A stretch of DNA of 52,401 nt from Escherichia phage vB_EcoM_4HA13 (NC_049466.2); one strand, 5' to 3'; shown: positions 32,553 to 42,297, numbered from the stretch's first letter. A program made the numbers and translations. Notes: a model not told the origin generated them from the letters alone.

Positions 32553-33026
32553 ATGCCAAAGCAAGATTGGAACATTAACACTGGTGAAGCATACGCTGGC
32601 GAACAGTATGGCTTGGCCACCACAAACTCTCAGCGTCTTACTTACAGCACCGAAGTAGCAATGGCTCACTTTGGTCTGGCTGTTCAGCCGGGCGCTAAGT
32701 ATAATACCTGTAAGCCGGGCCACGACGCTGGCAAAATTCTCGGCGTTGTCATGCGCCAGAACATTCTGGAATCTAAAACTCGTCCGGGCGATGGCACCAT
32801 TAACATTCCGGTTGGTCAGCCGTTGGGCATCATGCTCGAAGGTCCAGTCATGGTTAAGCTGATTACTGCAATCACTGATTCTAAAGTTGGCGTATCTGCT
32901 ACTGGTGAATTTGGTGGCGTAGCTGCTGGTGCTTATACTGAATGTACCAATGCTGTTGCACTGAAATACCCAGCTGCTGCTGGCGACGTTATCCCAATTA
33001 TGATTAACGTCATCCCAAAGCCGTAA
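32553..33026 (+). CDS. Head structural protein (decoration or minor capsid), frame-0 product
   Basis: Between scaffold and major capsid; carries slippery heptamer CCCAAAG two codons before its stop. Confidence 0.55.
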   Translation: MPKQDWNINTGEAYAGEQYGLATTNSQRLTYSTEVAMAHFGLAVQPGAKYNTCKPGHDAGKILGVVMRQNILESKTRPGDGTINIPVGQPLGIMLEGPVMVKLITAITDSKVGVSATGEFGGVAAGAYTECTNAVALKYPAAAGDVIPIMINVIPKP

Positions 33027-33322
33027 CGCCGCCGCCTACAGCCCCGACTGTAACTCCGGTTGCAGGTACAGTAACTGCTAATGCTTCAACTGCTAATGCA
33101 ACTGTAACTGTAGACAAGCTGTTTACGTTCGGTAACTCTGCGGCAACGGATTACAACTTCTCTGTTGACCCTGCTGTAACTGGCGTGTCTGTGGCGGCAA
33201 ATGGTACTGTGACTGTTGCAACTGCAACGATTGGTACTGCAACGACTGCAACAATCAAAGCTGTTAACAAAACGACTGCAAGTGTAACTGCTTCCAAAGC
33301 GATTACAATCACGCATCCGTAA
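33008..33322 (+). CDS. -1 frameshift extension of the 32553 gene: Pro/Thr linker plus Ig-like domain, no start codon of its own
   Basis: -1 frame is open from 33008 to TAA at 33320-33322 with no ATG; CCCAAAG at 33014-33020 fits X XXY YYZ in the upstream frame. Confidence 0.55.
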   Translation, partial: RHPKAVTPPPTAPTVTPVAGTVTANASTANATVTVDKLFTFGNSAATDYNFSVDPAVTGVSVAANGTVTVATATIGTATTATIKAVNKTTASVTASKAITITHP

Positions 33323-35612: not shown

Positions 35613-36128
35613 ATGGATATTCGACAAGAAGAAATTCAAGCAATGAAGGAAATTGTCGACGTATGTGTTGGCATTCCTCAATTCACATATGCAATGCAGT
35701 TGAATGCTGAAAGACCTAAAGGGGATTATGCAGCAATCAAATGTGTTTCATCTTTGAATCCAGGATTTGATGAAAACAGAATAATTGAAATTAATGGTGT
35801 TGACCATTATCGTACTCGCGGTATTCGCGTGTTAACTTTTTATATTCTGTTCTCTCGCGAGGGCGATGAGTTTATCAAGTTTGATAACTCATTCTATCGT
35901 CCAGATGTACAAGCTAAGTTGAAGCAAACTGGATTTGCTGCTCTTGGCAAAACGACTTTGGATTTATCATCCGTTACACTTGAAACAAATTGGGAAATCC
36001 GTCAGGGTGTTAAGATGCAATTTAATATTCTGCGCGAAGATATCTCACCAATCGATGTAATGACTGGTGCAAGTGTAGGTGGTAAGTTTATCGATGGCGA
36101 CCAAGTCATCACTATTAAGGGAATCTAA
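35613..36128 (+). CDS. Neck or tail completion protein (hypothetical)
   Basis: Position before sheath gene. Confidence 0.45.
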   Translation: MDIRQEEIQAMKEIVDVCVGIPQFTYAMQLNAERPKGDYAAIKCVSSLNPGFDENRIIEINGVDHYRTRGIRVLTFYILFSREGDEFIKFDNSFYRPDVQAKLKQTGFAALGKTTLDLSSVTLETNWEIRQGVKMQFNILREDISPIDVMTGASVGGKFIDGDQVITIKGI

Positions 36129-37576
36129 TGTCTATTTCCATTTCCGATATCATTCAAGTTAGCATCGCCGTTGCTCCCAACGCTGTTGCAACTGATGGGT
36201 TCGGCCCACTGCTCTTTATGAGCAAAGAGTTTGTACCGACTGTTGATGTGTATCCTGTTCGTTCATACTCAAGTCTGAAAGAAGTGTCGGCAGATTTCCC
36301 TTCTGGTGAAATCAACAAAGCTGCAACCGCATGGTACAGCCAGAAGCCAACTCCGAAGACTTTTCTCGTTGGTGCATTGCAGCACGATACTCTGGTTCCT
36401 GCAACCTCTGGTACTTACACTGCAACTGTAGCTGGCGTACTTGCAACAATCAAAGCAGAAACTGCCGCTGACCTTACTCTGTCTGTAGATGGTGTGATGA
36501 AAACTGTCAATGGTTTAGACTTCTCTGCTGCTGCTGACTTGGCCGCTTGTGCTGCTGTAGTTGATGCTGCATTGTCTGCTGCAAACATCGGTGCACATTG
36601 TACTCAAACGGCTGGCAAGTTCAAACTGGAAACTATCTCTACTGGCTCCAAAGCAACTGTACAAAACATATCTGGTAAAGCTGCGGAAGTTATGAAGTGG
36701 CTTCCTGCCGATAATCCACAAGTCTTTGCTGGCGCTGATGAACAATCAATCGCTCTAGATTTGGCAAAGATTGCCGAAGCTCCATTCAACTTCTTCTATG
36801 TTGGCCTTGACCGTCAATATCGTGGTAAAGTTGCCCCTACCGATAACCAAATGACCGTTGCAGAATGGTGCGAAGGCATGAGCAAAGTGTTTGGTTGGGC
36901 TGACACCGACCCGAACATTCTGGTCAACGGTATGGACTCCAGCTTCAAACGTGCGAAGAATCAAAACCTTCGTAACACTCTTTGTGTATTTGATGCGTCC
37001 GCAAACGGCGATGAATATCCAGAAGTGTCTATCTTAGGTCGTGCAGCAACTGTAAACTTCAACGTTGCAAACTCTGCTTTGATTCTTGCATATAAGAAAG
37101 GTCCGGGCGTTGCAACTGCTGACCTGTCCTCCGGTCAAGTTACTGCTCTGCAATCTGTAAATGGTAACGCATTCATTTCAGTTGATGGAAACGTCATGTT
37201 CTGGAATGGTAAAATGGCTGACGGTACTTGGTTCGATACGGTTCAGGGTGTTGAATGGTTGACTCAGAAAGTACGTAACAACGTATTCAATCTATTCTAT
37301 CAATCCACCACCAAGATTCCGTGGACTGAAACTGGCGTTGCACTTGTAAACCAGCAAATTACTTTAGCTCTGGAACTGGCTGTTACAAACGGTCTGATTG
37401 CCCCTGGCTACGATAATGAAGGTGTGTTCTACCCTGATGGTTACAAAGTAATGTCTACCGATTTGTCGCTTCTGCAATCTCAGAAGGGTGAGCGTATTTG
37501 GGAAGGCTCTTCCTTCATCGCCATTGGTTCTGGTGCCCTGCAAGGTGCACAGATTTCCGGCAACTTCGTACAGTAA
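36128..37576 (+). CDS. Tail sheath protein (putative)
   Basis: 482 aa, directly upstream of tube and chaperone genes. Confidence 0.5.
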   Translation: MSISISDIIQVSIAVAPNAVATDGFGPLLFMSKEFVPTVDVYPVRSYSSLKEVSADFPSGEINKAATAWYSQKPTPKTFLVGALQHDTLVPATSGTYTATVAGVLATIKAETAADLTLSVDGVMKTVNGLDFSAAADLAACAAVVDAALSAANIGAHCTQTAGKFKLETISTGSKATVQNISGKAAEVMKWLPADNPQVFAGADEQSIALDLAKIAEAPFNFFYVGLDRQYRGKVAPTDNQMTVAEWCEGMSKVFGWADTDPNILVNGMDSSFKRAKNQNLRNTLCVFDASANGDEYPEVSILGRAATVNFNVANSALILAYKKGPGVATADLSSGQVTALQSVNGNAFISVDGNVMFWNGKMADGTWFDTVQGVEWLTQKVRNNVFNLFYQSTTKIPWTETGVALVNQQITLALELAVTNGLIAPGYDNEGVFYPDGYKVMSTDLSLLQSQKGERIWEGSSFIAIGSGALQGAQISGNFVQ

Positions 37577-37587
37577 GGATGCGCTAA

Positions 37588-38043
37588 GTGAAGCAATATT
37601 CGTTTTATAATACTGACCTGATTATCGACGGCGCTCGCGTCGAAGGTTTTACGGCAGGTCAGGCAATCATTACCGCGCGTCGTAACGTTCCTCAACATCT
37701 TCCTGTGGTTGATGCTTATGGTAAGTTGGCAGTTGCTACAACTGCTGACTTGTCAGGTACAATTACTTTCCCTCTGCTGCAAACAGCAGACTGGAACGAA
37801 ATTCTGTACTCCAAAGCTCAACTAACTCAAGCAACTGGTCTGTCTGGCAACAAGTCTCTTTGGCCGCCAATTCAGATTCAGATTGTTGACAAGATGGGTG
37901 ACGTTCTGGTCAACGGTGTCAATGGTTGTATTCTGCAGCAGCCTGCAATTCAGCGTGGTGTTTCTTTCACGTCGAACCTGTGGGCTATTTATGTAGAACG
38001 TCTGCAAATCAAGACGGGTTCATACCCTGAGATTGGCGTTTAA
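37588..38043 (+). CDS. Tail tube protein (putative)
   Basis: 151 aa between sheath and chaperone; GTG start with AAGGA RBS. Confidence 0.5.
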   Translation: MKQYSFYNTDLIIDGARVEGFTAGQAIITARRNVPQHLPVVDAYGKLAVATTADLSGTITFPLLQTADWNEILYSKAQLTQATGLSGNKSLWPPIQIQIVDKMGDVLVNGVNGCILQQPAIQRGVSFTSNLWAIYVERLQIKTGSYPEIGV

Positions 38044-38055
38044 TTGGAGTAAGCA

Positions 38056-38514
38056 ATGGCTTGTGAATTACTACAACGTGAATTCACAAACTCCAAAGGT
38101 GAGAAAGTGCTGGTGGTTGTTCGTCAAATGGCGGCAGCCTCAGCACTTGACTTACACGTGGAGTTAGTCGGAAAGCTAGGCACAAGGATTTTCCCTTTCA
38201 TCGAAGATAAGTATACCTTTGGTGATATCATCTTCCTAATGCAGCAACAAGAGCATCCGGTATTCACAGAATTATTCAAACGCGTAATCAGCATTAATGT
38301 GCAGCTAGAGGGTCAGGAAGTTAAACCGGCCCTATTTAACATGCAGTTCAATGGTGAACTGATGCTGGCCTGTAAAGTCTTTGGTTTGGTATTGGAAGCA
38401 AACTTCTTGAGTTTTTTCAAGCAAGGGCTCGAAATCAACGAACAGAGACGGTTGGAGGCGGTCGAAGCATCCAAGCTGGCAGAGCAGAAGAATTCGAGTC
38501 CGGAGACGATTTAA
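38056..38514 (+). CDS. Tail assembly chaperone G
   Basis: Directly upstream of the tape-measure gene; contains slippery TTTTTTC with a -1 frame open to the tape-measure start. Confidence 0.55.
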   Translation: MACELLQREFTNSKGEKVLVVVRQMAAASALDLHVELVGKLGTRIFPFIEDKYTFGDIIFLMQQQEHPVFTELFKRVISINVQLEGQEVKPALFNMQFNGELMLACKVFGLVLEANFLSFFKQGLEINEQRRLEAVEASKLAEQKNSSPETI

Positions 38515-38690
38515 GTTCCCTGTTCCCGGATATAAGATACTTCCTGCATCGTCCATTAATCGAGGACAGTTCTCTTTGTCGTTTATGTGAACTTCAAGAT
38601 GGAACTTACTCGGTTATGGACCTTTTAACATTCCATGATATCCTCGACCTTCGTGAGAAACTCAAACCAGTAGAAGAAGATAATGGCTAA
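38412..38690 (+). CDS. -1 frameshift extension of tail chaperone (GT product)
   Basis: -1 frame is open from 38376 to TAA at 38688-38690; slippery TTTTTTC at 38412-38418; stop overlaps the tape-measure ATG. Confidence 0.5.
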   Translation, partial: FFQARARNQRTETVGGGRSIQAGRAEEFESGDDLSSLFPDIRYFLHRPLIEDSSLCRLCELQDGTYSVMDLLTFHDILDLREKLKPVEEDNG

Positions 38691-41600
38691 TCAAAAAGAA
38701 TTAATGCGCCTTACAGCTCAAGAATTAATTGGGATGGGAGCGCAATACGGTCTCACCTTCCATGCTGGAATGAAGAAGTCGCACATGGTTCAGCAACTTA
38801 GTGCAAGCGCTGCTTCTGGATGGATGGATGTTAATGCAGGATTGACGTCTGGAGTTCCAGAGGATGATGGTATTACTTCATCCTTTGGTGGCTCTTCAAT
38901 GATTTCAGATGCTGCTCACGTAGCACAAATGTTGTCAGGTGCTGGATTCACCGAAACTTTCCATGCTGCAATGAATGGCCCTTCACATCATGTTGAAGCT
39001 ATTCACAACTATATGCAGCAACTTGGCGTAAGCTCTGACGATGTTTGGATGCATATGCCGCACGCTAATCCAAATGTACCTGCTGGTCATTTCGGTATGT
39101 TGAATAACTACATGCGAGATACTTTGCAAGGTCATCAAGATATTATGCCTGAGATTGCTGGTCATTATTCTGGCGATATCATGGGCGAGTACGCTACAGA
39201 CAAAGGTGGCATTTCTGCGTCGTATGAACATTTAGCTCATATGTATGTTGATAAGTCCCAATACAGTAGCGAACATTTATATGGTGCAGACGTATCTCGT
39301 GTTGCATCAAGACTTGCAATTGGTATGGGAAGCAAATTCTCTGAGGTGGCATTCTCTGCTGCACAGGGAGCACATGTTTCTTACATGTCAGCACTTCCTA
39401 ATCTCGGAGACCCATCAATAGTTGGTGGTGTATCTCACCCTCGCGCTGCTTTAAATGCCTCTGGTCTTCCAATGGGTGCGATTGGTTCTGGTATTAATCC
39501 AGAATATTCTTTAGCTGCTTCTCTCACTGGAACTCCTGGATGGAGTCCTTCAAGTAAAGAAGTATATTCCAACGTATCAGATACTGTAAAGTCTTTGGCT
39601 GGAGTATATCGTGGCGAAACTGGAATGGAAGGTCGTCGTCATATTACTTCTGAACGTGATATGATTATGGATTCTGCTTCTCGTTATGCAGATATCTCTG
39701 ATGTACGTTCTGGCTATGCAAACTTGACCAGAGAGTTGACAGATGACCCACACTATTCTGCAACAAACATTCGTGCAATAATTGATAATAATTATGACCG
39801 CATGGATGCAGAGTCAATGGCAGCCCCGAGTGGAGTTGCTAATCCAGATTTGCGACTACCAACGATAGCAGAAACTGGAACTGCTTTCACCACAGATATT
39901 AGCGAGCCAACAAGTTGGAACTCCGCTCGTGCTCGTCGTGAAAGTATCGCTATATCTAACATGGATTCTATTCCGTGGTCTGATATAGAAAATAATTCTG
40001 GCCCAGTTAAGTTCCATAATCTTGAACAAGGTAGTCAAGAGTGGCTGGACTTCCGAAAGAACTACGACATAACAGGTTCTACTGTTGGCGGGTTCCTCGG
40101 TAATAATGCCTACACTCGTCCGTGGGCGGAAATGGTTGACAAGATTGGCTTATCAAGAAGTAAAGAGCCGAGTGCATTTCAACAAAGAATGTTTGATGCT
40201 GGTCATAAAACAGAGGACGAAGCACGTATCAGAGTTGCTAAACAACTCGGTACTGATATCCAGCAAACTGGTGCAATAACCAATGACAATTATCCATCAT
40301 TCATGTATTCGCCGGATGGTCTCATTGGTGATGATGCGATTTGGGAACATAAGAATCCTGAACGTGCTGGCAAATTTGCTAACTTATCTGCTGGCGACCA
40401 TCCAGACTATATGGACCAAGTGCAATTTGGTATGCTTGTATCTGGTCGTTCTCGTGCACTGTTCTCACAAACCATCGGTAGTGAAACCAAATCTCAATGG
40501 ATTGAGAAAGATGAAGGTTGGTACGAAAGAAACAGAAACCGACTAGATTCTACTCTTGGTCGTCTTGATGCTGGTCGAGCATTTGTTCGCGAGAATAATG
40601 ATTTACCTCCAGATGAATTAATTAAAGGCGCTCGTGCAGCAATGATGGGAGAGGGCATCTGGAAAGATGTTTCTCAGAAATCAAATCGTGGATACTCCGC
40701 ATCTGCGGGTACTTCTGCTGACCCATTTATTGCAACCGACACTTCCGCAATAACTCCAGAGTCTATGGCAATGTCTGTCAAGACTGGTATCTTGGCTGCA
40801 CAAGAAGACAATCGTCAGAAAGCTGGAGCTGGACTGCCTTCTGGAAATACCGACCCGTTCGAAATGCAACGTGAAAGTGCTGATGAAGCATTTGATACAA
40901 TGATGCGTCGTGCTGGATATAATAATTTCGGTGGAGGTGGTGGCGGTGGTGGAAGACCACCCAGCAATGGTGGAAGTTTCTACGATGACTTTGGTCGTGC
41001 TGGTGGTGCTCTTGCTGCTGGTGTTGCTGGTGGAAGCATATCGTCTTTAAGTAGTGGTGCAATGCAAGCACTTATGGCTACACCAATGGGCCGTATGATT
41101 GGAATGGGAATTGGTGCAATTCAAATTGGTAACGAAGCTGCGGAAGGGTTGAACGACTTTGTCGGTAATGCTCTTGATGCTGGTTTAGTTAATCCAAATG
41201 AATACTCGTCAATGTCTCAGGGCATGGAAATGTTGGGACTCAATTCTCAACAAGCCGGAAGATTAAATCAAACGACACATAGTGCCTACAACACCCTGCT
41301 AAATGGCGACCCAAGCGGCGCTATCCGCATCGTTCAGGGAACCCGTGGTCTTATCAACATAGGCGACATTCGTGCAACTGAGGGCGACCCAGTGGCCCTA
41401 GCTCGCATTATGCGTGAACGTGGACAGGAGCGGGGATGGAGTCAGGCGCGGATAGCTGGCGCAACTCAAATGGCAGGACTCGACGGCATGGCAAGAGCCT
41501 TTGACCGTGGAGAATACAGCCAGAGCCAAGCGGAGCAGGTCGTTCAGGCTGGACGTGACTCAGACTATGCACAAGGAACAAGTGAGCTAGAAATGTTGCA

Positions 41601-42297
41601 GGGAGAGCGAGCGAGGGCATTGCCCGGCTACAACCTTCCGCAAGCTGCTGTCACATATGGTGGTCCGATTTTCGGTGCTGCTAGTGATGCTGTACTTCAA
41701 GCTCGTGTTGCTGGTGGTCAGGTTGCTTCTGGTGCTCGCTCAGTTTATGACTTTATCATGGGTGAAGAATCTGGTGGTCGTGATTACAATGCTGATGGTA
41801 GTGTTGTAACAAGCAGGACTGGTGCACAAGGAAGAATGCAAGTTCTAAACTCCACCAACCGTGACCCAGGGTTTGATGTGCGTCCTGCCCAAAATGACTC
41901 TCTTGATGAACGTGCTCGTGTAGGTCGCGATTACTTTGATGCGATGTTGAAGCGTTATGGTGATTACGATAAAGCAATGGCTGCGTACACTGATGGACCG
42001 GGAACTGTAGACAGAGCAGTCCAAGAGCATGGCACTGACTGGCTTAATGCCGTCCCAGCACAAGCACAAAACAGAGTTAAAGCGTTCCACGATTGGCAAC
42101 AAAATGGTGGACAGCTTACTGATGGTGCTGGTGGATTTACTCGTAATGGTGTTTCATATGGACAGACTACAGTCGTTCAAGTGAACATTAATGCTAAAGT
42201 AAATGGACAAAGTGCATCAGCAACTGTATCAACTCCAAATGGTGCTTCTGCCTCTCAGCAGATTAACGTTGGAAATGGTGCAATGCAGAAAAGATAA
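38683..42297 (+). CDS. Tail tape measure protein with embedded YqaJ-like PD-(D/E)XK nuclease domain and C-terminal lytic transglycosylase domain
   Basis: 1204 aa after the chaperone; Gly-rich hydrophobic segments; QGSQEWLDFRK...ITGSTV...SPDGL...WEHKNP is a YqaJ-like pattern; C-terminal GEESGGRDYN...AQGRMQV is SLT-like. Confidence 0.7.
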   Translation: MANQKELMRLTAQELIGMGAQYGLTFHAGMKKSHMVQQLSASAASGWMDVNAGLTSGVPEDDGITSSFGGSSMISDAAHVAQMLSGAGFTETFHAAMNGPSHHVEAIHNYMQQLGVSSDDVWMHMPHANPNVPAGHFGMLNNYMRDTLQGHQDIMPEIAGHYSGDIMGEYATDKGGISASYEHLAHMYVDKSQYSSEHLYGADVSRVASRLAIGMGSKFSEVAFSAAQGAHVSYMSALPNLGDPSIVGGVSHPRAALNASGLPMGAIGSGINPEYSLAASLTGTPGWSPSSKEVYSNVSDTVKSLAGVYRGETGMEGRRHITSERDMIMDSASRYADISDVRSGYANLTRELTDDPHYSATNIRAIIDNNYDRMDAESMAAPSGVANPDLRLPTIAETGTAFTTDISEPTSWNSARARRESIAISNMDSIPWSDIENNSGPVKFHNLEQGSQEWLDFRKNYDITGSTVGGFLGNNAYTRPWAEMVDKIGLSRSKEPSAFQQRMFDAGHKTEDEARIRVAKQLGTDIQQTGAITNDNYPSFMYSPDGLIGDDAIWEHKNPERAGKFANLSAGDHPDYMDQVQFGMLVSGRSRALFSQTIGSETKSQWIEKDEGWYERNRNRLDSTLGRLDAGRAFVRENNDLPPDELIKGARAAMMGEGIWKDVSQKSNRGYSASAGTSADPFIATDTSAITPESMAMSVKTGILAAQEDNRQKAGAGLPSGNTDPFEMQRESADEAFDTMMRRAGYNNFGGGGGGGGRPPSNGGSFYDDFGRAGGALAAGVAGGSISSLSSGAMQALMATPMGRMIGMGIGAIQIGNEAAEGLNDFVGNALDAGLVNPNEYSSMSQGMEMLGLNSQQAGRLNQTTHSAYNTLLNGDPSGAIRIVQGTRGLINIGDIRATEGDPVALARIMRERGQERGWSQARIAGATQMAGLDGMARAFDRGEYSQSQAEQVVQAGRDSDYAQGTSELEMLQGERARALPGYNLPQAAVTYGGPIFGAASDAVLQARVAGGQVASGARSVYDFIMGEESGGRDYNADGSVVTSRTGAQGRMQVLNSTNRDPGFDVRPAQNDSLDERARVGRDYFDAMLKRYGDYDKAMAAYTDGPGTVDRAVQEHGTDWLNAVPAQAQNRVKAFHDWQQNGGQLTDGAGGFTRNGVSYGQTTVVQVNINAKVNGQSASATVSTPNGASASQQINVGNGAMQKR

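What the first reader, a model, noticed from the sequence alone, without database searches (positions are those of the whole stretch)
38056..38690. Tail chaperone G/GT -1 frameshift at TTTTTTC
The chaperone ORF contains TTTTTTC at 38412-38418 in X XXY YYZ phase. The -1 frame is open from 38376 to 38690 and stops on the tape-measure start codon. This matches the conserved G/GT arrangement and independently supports the sheath, tube, chaperone, tape-measure order.
Basis: partly seen in the sequence, partly recalled or inferred. Interest (0 to 1): 0.5.

Follow-up and report, generated by a model that had tools for sequence, protein, structure and literature searches.

The report
Tail chaperone G/GT -1 frameshift site
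The phage's tail-assembly chaperone gene carries a conserved slippery TTTTTTC where a minority of ribosomes probably slip back one base to make a longer second protein; this is the ordinary trick of long-tailed phages, but it has gone unannotated in this phage family.

Summary

- **Identity of the window:** it is almost certainly the genome of Escherichia phage vB_EcoM-4HA13 (family Chaseviridae).
- **The -1 frame:** it is open from 38376 to 38690 and has no start codon for 66 codons after the heptamer. It ends in ATGGCTAA, overlapping the tape-measure start. The fusion product is 211 aa (24.0 kDa).
- **Conservation in relatives:** the in-phase heptamer is kept in 20 of 21 relatives, down to about 30% protein identity. 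Its three codons are the least variable at third positions in the whole gene.
- **The extension is coding:** downstream of the chaperone stop, substitutions follow -1-frame codon periodicity. The conserved C-terminal domain matches Pfam DUF6889.
- **Wider sample:** in IMG/VR, 61 of 68 loci encoding this domain have a canonical in-phase heptamer in the overlap.
- **Annotation status:** none of the 21 public records inspected annotates a joined gene, and no fused protein appeared in a 5.8-billion-protein search.
- **RNA stimulator:** no family-wide downstream structure was found.

Verdict: a new, unannotated member of the well-known lambda G/GT and P2 E/E+E' class. Interest is low to moderate.

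The parts
38056..38514 (+). Gene G: tail assembly chaperone, 152 aa, 17.3 kDa, the zero-frame product. GGAG lies 8 nt upstream of the ATG.
38412..38418 (+). Slippery heptamer U_UUU_UUC. Phe codons UUU (P site) and UUC (A site) are preceded by the U of AGU.
   Evidence: Phase checked. In-phase TTTTTTC in 20 of 21 relatives. Lowest third-position variability of 198 three-codon windows. U_UU.U_UU.C falls in the efficient H_HH.U_UU.Y class in E. coli (PMC4066793).
38418..38690 (+). T segment: 90 codons in the -1 frame plus TAA. It consists of an Arg/Gly-rich linker, then a conserved helical domain of about 55 aa (FPDIRYFLHRPLIEDSSLC..LQDGTYS..DLL.FHDILDLR).
   Evidence: Translation. First ATG/GTG/TTG is at codon 66. 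tblastn recovers this frame in 102 of 106 phage records. Codon-position variability after the G stop is 0.18/0.11/0.42. All 14 T domains tested hit Pfam DUF6889, best E 1.8e-9. PHROG 4364 at E 1.6e-15. Model pLDDT is 84-91 over residues 31-80.
38056..38690 (+). Predicted GT fusion product: 211 aa, 24.0 kDa. It joins zero-frame residues 1-121 to the 90 -1-frame residues.
   Evidence: Constructed. Equivalent fusions of 195-215 aa can be built in all relatives.
38425..38433 (+). 5' arm (GGGCUCGAA) of a possible 9-bp stem that begins 6 nt after the heptamer. It is a candidate stimulator only.
   Evidence: MFE folds. Duplex energy -15.1 kcal/mol, z about -3 against shuffled partners. Not conserved family-wide.
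38493..38501 (+). 3' arm (UUCGAGUCC) of the same candidate stem.
   Evidence: The arm lies in the dual-coding overlap, so its conservation does not by itself indicate RNA structure.
38683..42297 (+). Tape measure protein gene (1204 aa). Its ATG overlaps the end of the T frame (ATGGCTAA).
   Evidence: ORF. Pfam YqaJ and SLT domains. Detected in 4HA13 virions as 'tail tape measure protein', 128,217 Da, 64-67% coverage (PMC9699118 Table S2).
37588..38043 (+). Tail tube gene (151 aa), immediately upstream of G.
   Evidence: PHROG 280 at E 4e-30. Weak Pfam PF11681 match. Listed as 'tail tube protein', 16,516 Da, in the 4HA13 virion proteome.
36128..37576 (+). Tail sheath gene (482 aa).
   Evidence: Pfam PF11863 at E 2.4e-57. 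PHROG 205 'tail sheath' at E 1.6e-92.

Best explanation
Gene G (38056-38514) encodes the tail assembly chaperone.

**Proposed mechanism.** When tRNA-Phe occupies both the P site (UUU) and the A site (UUC) of U_UUU_UUC, a minority of ribosomes slip one base backwards. Both tRNAs re-pair on UUU UUU. Decoding then continues with CAA at 38418 in the -1 frame for 90 more codons.

**Products.** The result is a 211-aa GT protein with the same first 121 residues as G. It replaces G's helical C-terminal tail with a flexible Arg/Gly linker and a conserved helical T domain (Pfam DUF6889) of about 55 aa.

**Inferred function.** By analogy with lambda G/GT and P2 E/E+E', abundant G and rare GT coat the tape measure protein. 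The T domain recruits the tube protein so that the tube, and around it the sheath, polymerises to the length set by the tape measure. Neither G nor GT stays in the virion.

**What is shown and what is inferred.**
- Shown: the site, its phase, its conservation, the coding nature of the -1 frame, the lack of an independent start, and the chaperone family and fold.
- Inferred: that slippage is ribosomal, its efficiency (probably a few percent), and the binding partners of G and T.
For: **The site itself**
- Sequence and phase are as stated.
- Of 37 in-phase heptamers in the window's gene-like ORFs, only three open onto a -1 frame that runs past the gene's own stop. TTTTTTC occurs twice in 52 kb.

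**Conservation of the heptamer**
- In-phase TTTTTTC is present in 20 of 21 related phages spanning about 30-80% protein identity. TTTTTTT is present in a distant myovirus.
- In 8 of the 21 relatives, including the five nearest E. coli and Yersinia phages inspected, the -1 frame opens at the first base of the heptamer. The shift therefore cannot occur further upstream.
- The three heptamer codons have the lowest third-position variability (0.03) of 198 windows in the gene.

**The -1 frame is coding and has no start of its own**
- Third-position variability after the G stop is 0.42, against 0.18 and 0.11 at positions 1 and 2. This is the same pattern as in G. Variability is damped in the dual-coding overlap.
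- There is no ATG/GTG/TTG for 29-66 codons after the site in any relative that has one. SSEM1 has none at all.
- tblastn with the fusion finds both halves, in two frames, in 102 of 106 phage records.

**Wider sample**
- In five distant metagenomic or chromosomal loci, the order sheath, tube, TAC_15, DUF6889, tape measure recurs. T is in the -1 frame in all five.
- Four of the five have TTTTTTC or TTTTTTT; the fifth has AAATTTT at the same position.
- In IMG/VR, 61 of 68 distinct loci have a canonical in-phase heptamer in the overlap. The main ones are TTTTTTC (33 loci, plus 2 that also carry GGGTTTT), AAATTTG (12), AAATTTA (6) and TTTTTTA (3).

**Family, fold and published context**
- G belongs to Pfam Phage_TAC_15 and has a chaperone-like fold.
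- U_UU.U_UU.C is in the efficient class of -1 motifs in E. coli (PMC4066793).
- P2 uses TTTTTTG at the equivalent gene (PMC3091744).
- The published virion proteome lists tube, sheath and tape measure but neither G nor the T ORF.
Against: - No protein evidence for GT exists. The published mass-spectrometry search used a database without the fusion, and it analysed purified virions, where GT is not expected.
- No downstream RNA stimulator is conserved across the family. RNAalifold predicts no pairs and the cross-genome duplex test is weak.
- The local fold z-scores are unremarkable (-1.5 to -1.9).
- One relative, Erwinia phage Faunus, has GTTTTTC, so a perfect heptamer is not strictly required.
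- The relatives are phylogenetically related, so the counts overstate the number of independent observations.
- The T-domain model has no structural match to any characterised T domain, so its tube-binding role rests on analogy alone.
Confidence: 0.87

Rival explanations
1. Transcriptional slippage. The RNA polymerase adds one extra U while copying the T6 run, either the host enzyme or the phage's own T7-like single-subunit enzyme. A fraction of mRNAs then carry U7, and normal translation of them yields exactly the same 211-aa GT protein.
For: - The site is a homopolymer run, and the predicted protein is identical for both mechanisms.
- Chaseviridae encode their own single-subunit RNA polymerase (PMC12842549). 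Its slippage behaviour is unknown.
- No conserved downstream RNA stimulator was found.
Against: - From my own knowledge, six U is shorter than the runs that give efficient slippage by bacterial or T7 RNA polymerase.
- Faunus keeps only five T but retains the A-site U_UUC tetramer.
- In more distant loci the homologous position holds AAATTTG, AAATTTA or AAATTTT. These are canonical ribosomal X_XXY_YYZ sites but poor homopolymers for polymerase slippage.
- Lambda and P2 G/GT frameshifting also need no RNA structure.
Confidence: 0.05
2. The downstream frame is a separate small gene, translated on its own by initiation or re-initiation after the G stop. This is how public records annotate it (phiEcoM-GJ1 gp61 and the 73-aa 4HA13 'uncharacterized protein').
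For: - Several records call small ORFs of 37-74 aa here.
- The protein databases hold about 200 such ORFs of 43-115 aa.
Against: - In the window the first ATG/GTG/TTG of the frame is at codon 66 of 90, and no GGAG-like ribosome-binding motif is evident just upstream of it.
- The annotated phiEcoM-GJ1 gp61 begins at ATC, which is not a start codon.
- The 4HA13 ORF P0035 starts M-QAGR, where the window encodes I-QAGR.
- Annotated starts differ from phage to phage and cut into the conserved domain. SSEM1 has no start codon at all in the frame.
- The conserved region begins about 30 codons upstream of any candidate start.
Confidence: 0.04
3. Chance or relic. The heptamer and the open -1 frame have no expression consequence, and the 170-nt stretch between the G stop and the tape-measure start is non-coding spacer.
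For: Nothing specific supports this. In-phase heptamers do occur by chance: there are 37 in the window's gene-like ORFs.
Against: - The -1 frame shows codon periodicity of substitutions.
- The T domain is conserved down to about 30% identity and into metagenomic relatives.
- The synonymous sites of the heptamer are extremely conserved.
Confidence: 0.01

Closest known systems
Bacteriophage P2 E / E+E' tail chaperone frameshift (Christie et al. 2002; Xu, Hendrix and Duda 2004; as summarised in PMC3091744)
   Same: - It is a contractile-tailed phage with the same gene order: sheath, tube, chaperone with a -1 extension, tape measure.
- The U-rich heptamer is nearly the same (TTTTTTG in P2, TTTTTTC here).
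- The extension ends next to the tape-measure gene.
- No downstream RNA structure is reported for P2, and none is conserved here.
   Different: - No sequence-family link to P2 E was seen here. G belongs to Pfam Phage_TAC_15 and the extension to DUF6889.
- The proteins here are larger: 152 and 211 aa, against 91 and 142 aa in P2.
- The P2 frameshift is experimentally demonstrated; this one is not.
Bacteriophage lambda G / GT (Levin et al. 1993; Xu et al. 2013, 2014; reviewed in PMC5009743)
   Same: Two products share one start, made by a low-level -1 shift near the 3' end of G. The gene lies between the major tail and tape-measure genes. The products are absent from virions, and the arrangement is widely conserved despite low sequence similarity.
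   Different: - Lambda is a siphovirus and uses G_GGA_AAG, with tRNA-Gly and tRNA-Lys. This site uses tRNA-Phe in both ribosomal sites.
- The binding partners and the roughly 30:1 ratio are known for lambda and only inferred here.
HK97 tail assembly chaperone (PDB 2ob9) and B. subtilis prophage protein YqbN (PDB 3klu)
   Different: - Sequence identity is only 7-11%, and Foldseek did not find these matches at a significant level.
- That YqbN is a chaperone is my own recollection of the XkdN-like family. It was not tested here.

Membership tests
G/GT-type programmed frameshift of phage tail assembly chaperones (Xu, Hendrix and Duda 2004) | Two overlapping reading frames lie between the major tail (tube) gene and the tape-measure gene. 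| tested here: met
   Tube 37588-38043, G 38056-38514, -1 frame to 38690, tape measure from 38683. The same order is seen in all 21 annotated relatives and in 5 distant loci.
G/GT-type programmed frameshift of phage tail assembly chaperones (Xu, Hendrix and Duda 2004) | A slippery sequence sits in the overlap, in the phase that lets both tRNAs re-pair in the new frame. | tested here: met
   U_UUU_UUC is in phase. The motif belongs to the efficient class in E. coli.
G/GT-type programmed frameshift of phage tail assembly chaperones (Xu, Hendrix and Duda 2004) | The downstream frame has no translation start of its own. | tested here: met
   The first NTG start codon is at codon 66 of 90 in the window, at codons 29-66 in relatives, and absent in SSEM1. 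Annotated starts such as ATC are not start codons.
G/GT-type programmed frameshift of phage tail assembly chaperones (Xu, Hendrix and Duda 2004) | The shift site and the frame relationship are conserved among relatives while the proteins diverge. | tested here: met
   20 of 21 phages; 61 of 68 IMG/VR loci have a canonical heptamer; the site shows the lowest synonymous variability in the gene.
G/GT-type programmed frameshift of phage tail assembly chaperones (Xu, Hendrix and Duda 2004) | Both G and a longer GT protein are made, with GT the minor species, and both are needed for tail assembly. | not testable with these tools
   This needs a Western blot or mass spectrometry of infected cells, plus site mutants.
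G/GT-type programmed frameshift of phage tail assembly chaperones (Xu, Hendrix and Duda 2004) | The chaperones are absent from mature virions. | tested here: inconclusive
   The published 4HA13 virion proteome lists 15 proteins with at least 50% coverage, and neither G nor the T ORF is among them. The table is truncated at 50% coverage, and the fusion was not in the search database.
Pfam PF21822 Phage_TAC_15 | The profile match is above the curated gathering score. | tested here: met
   49.1 bits against a cutoff of 22, E 1.1e-12, residues 20-126. All 33 database homologues carry PF21822.
Pfam PF21829 DUF6889 (here read as the T domain) | The profile match is above the curated gathering score. 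| tested here: inconclusive
   The window's T segment scores 16.9 bits against a cutoff of 23.9. All 14 family T segments hit at E <= 1, best 1.8e-9. Most database homologues of the T profile carry PF21829.
Tail assembly chaperone fold (HK97 chaperone, PDB 2ob9) | Structural similarity of the G domain to a solved chaperone. | tested here: met
   [not shown]

The most novel reading that the evidence does not exclude
The GT product might be made by transcriptional slippage and not by ribosomal slippage. The phage's own T7-like RNA polymerase would add an extra U at the T6 run during late transcription. That would be an unusual route to a G/GT pair. The sequence evidence disfavours this but cannot exclude it for this phage.

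A milder and much more likely new point also emerges. Pfam DUF6889 is the frameshift-encoded T domain of a large group of myovirus tail modules of the TAC_15 type. In that group the shift site sits at one homologous position but uses interchangeable heptamers (TTTTTTC, AAATTTG/A/T, TTTTTTA).
Probability: 0.05. Interest if true: 0.5.

Novelty: new member of a known kind. Interest (0 to 1): 0.25.

Why it matters
The mechanism itself is textbook, so the value lies mainly in annotation.

- **Missing gene product:** in this phage family, which includes phages studied for biocontrol of E. coli, Erwinia, Pectobacterium, Yersinia and Aeromonas, the second chaperone is missing from every record inspected. 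In its place are tiny 'hypothetical proteins' with invented start codons.
- **Fix for the records:** recognising the frameshift corrects those annotations.
- **Function for a DUF:** it gives a likely function to Pfam DUF6889.
- **Annotation rule:** for tail modules with an E217/PhiTE-type sheath and tube, the rule is TAC_15 gene, then an in-phase U-rich heptamer, then a -1 DUF6889 domain ending at the tape-measure start.
- **Gene order:** it independently confirms the sheath, tube, chaperone, tape-measure order in 4HA13.

Tried and rejected
1. **Downstream stimulatory RNA.**
   - RNAalifold on 13 relatives predicted no pairs.
   - Single-sequence folds gave z-scores of only -0.2 to -1.9.
   - A test pairing each genome's 5' arm with every genome's 3' region gave a diagonal mean of -11.8 against -10.8 kcal/mol. 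The permutation p of 0.04 is confounded by relatedness.
   - The 9-bp stem 38425-38433 / 38493-38501 exists in the window-like clades but is lost in Loessnervirus, which keeps the same 5' arm. I keep it as a candidate only.
2. **Upstream Shine-Dalgarno-like stimulator.** By eye on the alignment, only a weak GAAG/GAGG is present, and it is not conserved.
3. **Rfam.** No match in 38300-38750 at E <= 1.
4. **Structure databases.**
   - The PDB sequence search with G gave nothing meaningful.
   - The T-domain model matched only its own orthologue in BFVD.
5. **Natural in-frame G-T fusions.** None was found. The one 164-aa hit (P0073) has an N-terminus unlike that of G.
6. **Joint G+T alignment for structure prediction.** The alignment (A3) was misaligned and I dropped it. 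G and T were modelled separately.
7. **Literature.** No paper in the searchable library describes a frameshift in Chaseviridae or phiEcoM-GJ1-like phages. The phiEcoM-GJ1 genome paper itself was not available.

Full report
**What the window is.** The window is 52,401 bases, the genome length reported for Escherichia phage vB_EcoM-4HA13 (MN136198.2; Chaseviridae, genus Sabourvirus) (PMC9699118). Two peptides published for that phage occur in window ORFs: IKGLNAIK in the major capsid protein and GDYAAIKCVSSLNPGFDENR in the tail completion protein. A UniRef protein of 4HA13 is 99% identical to the -1 frame discussed here. The nearest records in the phage collection are phiEcoM-GJ1-like phages at about 78-81% nucleotide identity.

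**Checking the observation.** TTTTTTC lies at 38412-38418. The ORF starts at 38056, so 38412 is a third codon position and the zero frame reads AG-T TTT TTC (Ser-Phe-Phe). This is X_XXY_YYZ phase. The -1 frame is open from 38376 to the TAA at 38688-38690. The tape-measure ATG is at 38683-38685, so the two genes overlap as ATGGCTAA. A simultaneous-slippage product has 121 zero-frame residues plus 90 -1-frame residues. Its '212 aa' and 'stops on the start codon' are near misses.

**Is it more than chance?**
- About 14,600 codons of gene-like ORFs in the window contain 37 in-phase X_XXY_YYZ heptamers. Only three of them lead into a -1 frame that continues beyond the gene's own stop, and this is one of them.
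- TTTTTTC occurs twice on the + strand of the whole window and never on the - strand.
- Of nine Phe-Phe pairs in long ORFs, eight are encoded TTC-TTT or TTC-TTC. Only this one is TTT-TTC.

**Context.**
- *Sheath:* ORF 36128-37576 (Pfam PF11863 at E 2e-57; PHROG tail sheath at E 2e-92).
- *Tube:* ORF 37588-38043 (PHROG 280). It is listed as 'tail tube protein' in the 4HA13 virion proteome.
- *Chaperone:* ORF 38056-38514 matches Pfam PF21822 Phage_TAC_15 (E 1e-12, above cutoff) and PHROG 11820 'tail assembly chaperone' (E 6e-65).
- *Tape measure:* ORF 38683-42297 is the 1204-aa virion protein annotated and detected as tape measure.

**Comparative evidence for the shift site.**
- A tblastn search with the 211-aa fusion found 106 phage records. 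In 102 of them both halves were recovered as two pieces in two frames, at identities from 80% down to about 30%. Hosts include Escherichia, Yersinia, Pectobacterium, Erwinia, Pantoea, Proteus, Aeromonas, Vibrio and Shewanella.
- I fetched 21 representatives. Twenty have TTTTTTC in the same phase at the homologous position, and a distant uncultured myovirus has TTTTTTT.
- Only Erwinia phage Faunus differs. It has GTTTTTC (Asp GAT changed to Glu GAG), which keeps the A-site U_UUC tetramer.
- In 8 of the 21 relatives, including the five nearest E. coli and Yersinia phages inspected, the -1 frame opens at the first T of the heptamer. The shift therefore cannot happen further upstream.
- By my reading of the window sequence, the 32 codons between the heptamer and the G stop contain no other slippery heptamer or tetramer.
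- Across 22 aligned sequences, the three heptamer codons have the lowest mean third-position variability of all 198 three-codon windows: 0.03, against a gene average near 0.5.

**Evidence that the -1 frame is translated as an extension.**
- After the G stop, nucleotide variability by -1-frame codon position is 0.18/0.11/0.42. In G it is 0.23/0.14/0.43. In the overlap, third-position variability falls to 0.24, as expected for dual coding.
- The extension consists of a variable Arg/Gly-rich linker and then a well-conserved domain of about 55 aa (FPDIRYFLHRP.IED..LC.L.ELQDGTYS..DLL.FH.ILDLR).
- The model of that domain is helical, with pLDDT 84-91.
- The first ATG/GTG/TTG of the frame lies at codon 66 of 90 in the window and at codons 29-66 in relatives, which is inside or after the conserved domain. 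Pantoea phage SSEM1 has no start codon there at all.
- Public records either leave the region empty or call small 'hypothetical proteins' with inconsistent starts. The phiEcoM-GJ1 gp61 CDS begins at ATC.
- No sampled record has a joined CDS.
- A search of 5.8 billion proteins with the fusion returned only proteins of about 150 aa covering the G part.

**Reach beyond the family.**
- All 14 T segments tested hit Pfam DUF6889 (best E 1.8e-9). The window's own segment is below the gathering score.
- A profile of the T segments found about 200 database proteins. Nearly all are ORFs of 43-115 aa. Some run upstream through the slippery site and read ...FFR/Q....
- Five distant loci (metagenomes and a Hafnia alvei chromosome) all show the order tail terminator, sheath (PF11863), tube (PF11681), TAC_15, DUF6889 ORF, tape measure. 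The DUF6889 ORF is in the -1 frame in all five.
- Four of the five have TTTTTTC or TTTTTTT. The fifth has AAATTTT at the same place.
- In IMG/VR, 68 of 70 distinct loci had a zero-frame ORF of at least 80 aa ending inside the open T frame. Of these, 61 had a canonical in-phase heptamer in the overlap: TTTTTTC (33, plus 2 that also carry GGGTTTT), AAATTTG (12), AAATTTA (6), TTTTTTA (3), AAATTTT (2), and 3 loci with two or three heptamers.
- Several of the seven exceptions have near-canonical sites such as G_GAT_TTA.
- From the window's background rate (37 heptamers per 14,622 codons), about 0.1 heptamer would be expected per overlap of 35 codons. The observed fraction is 0.9.
- Replacement of one canonical heptamer by another at a fixed position is hard to explain except by selection for slipperiness.

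**Mechanism.**
- The heptamer puts tRNA-Phe on UUU in the P site and on UUC in the A site. After a one-base slip both tRNAs face UUU, which is cognate.
- Sharma et al. list U_UU.U_UU.C among motifs that shift above 0.1% without any stimulator and that are under-represented in phase in E. coli genes. They also place H_HH.U_UU.Y among the most efficient heptamers in E. coli (PMC4066793).
- I looked for stimulators. No consensus structure emerged, Rfam had no match, and no conserved upstream Shine-Dalgarno-like element is visible in the alignment.
- In the window and its nearer relatives, a 9-bp stem (GGGCUCGAA 38425-38433 with UUCGAGUCC 38493-38501) starts 6 nt after the heptamer. Its duplex energy is -15.1 kcal/mol, about 3 SD better than shuffled partners.
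- Both arms of that stem lie in dual-coding sequence. The pairing is not maintained in other clades, and the family-wide test is weak. I treat it as a candidate only.
- Lambda and P2 also work without a known structure.

**Function.** In lambda, G and GT bind the tape measure, and the T part binds the major tail protein and starts its polymerisation. The roughly 30:1 ratio matters, neither protein is in the virion, and P2 shifts two to three times more often (PMC5009743). P2 is also a myovirus. It makes E (91 aa) and E+E' (142 aa) at TTTTTTG between its tube and tape-measure genes (PMC3091744). I infer the same roles here. Consistent with this, the 4HA13 virion proteome lists sheath, tube and tape measure but not G or the T ORF. 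That table is limited to proteins with at least 50% coverage, and the fusion was not searched.

**Rivals.**
- *Transcriptional slippage at the T6 run* would give the identical protein, and these phages carry their own RNA polymerase. Against it: the short run, the five-T Faunus variant, and the use of AAATTTN heptamers in distant relatives.
- *Independent translation of the T frame* is contradicted by the absence of start codons.
- *Chance* is excluded by conservation and codon periodicity.

**Verdict.** This is a genuine, conserved and hitherto unannotated instance of the standard tail-chaperone -1 frameshift. It is a new member of a known kind. Its main value is in correcting annotation and in giving DUF6889 a likely role.

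Noticed in passing
window 33014-33322 (gene 32553-33026 and the gap before 33368): A second likely -1 frameshift. In-phase C_CCA_AAG lies at 33014-33020, two codons before the stop of the 157-aa ORF upstream of the major capsid gene. The -1 frame opens at 33008 and runs 100 codons to 33322, filling an otherwise gene-less gap. It encodes a Thr/Ala/Val-rich extension that looks Ig-like by eye, giving a 256-aa fusion. The same heptamer and extension are present in Yersinia phage PYps16N, and the last 69 aa are 80-84% identical in 12 of the 21 matching phage records. Pfam gave no hit.
   Followed up: partly
window 38683-42297: The 1204-aa tape measure protein carries an internal YqaJ-like exonuclease domain (Pfam E 7e-10, residues 453-589; also PHROG RecE-like exonuclease) and a C-terminal SLT lytic transglycosylase domain. 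The YqaJ hit recurs in the tape-measure genes of distant loci. A nuclease-like domain inside a tape measure is unusual and unexplained.
   Followed up: no
L001 3129-3350 (phiEcoM-GJ1 gp61); protein P0035 (4HA13): Public annotations of the T frame use a non-start codon. The gp61 CDS begins at ATC. The 4HA13 73-aa protein starts M-QAGR, where the genome encodes I-QAGR. These look like forced gene calls that the frameshift model makes unnecessary.
   Followed up: yes
L012 1060-1066 (Erwinia phage Faunus): Faunus is the only sampled relative without a perfect heptamer. It has GTTTTTC (Asp GAT changed to Glu GAG), which keeps only the A-site U_UUC tetramer. Either it frameshifts less efficiently or P-site re-pairing is not critical.
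   Followed up: partly
L028-L107 (IMG/VR loci); L024 2483: Across loci encoding DUF6889, the frameshift position is fixed but the heptamer is interchangeable: TTTTTTC, AAATTTG, AAATTTA, AAATTTT and TTTTTTA, with a few G_GAT_TTA-like sites. This is a natural series for comparing heptamer efficiencies.
   Followed up: partly
[not shown]
   Followed up: no
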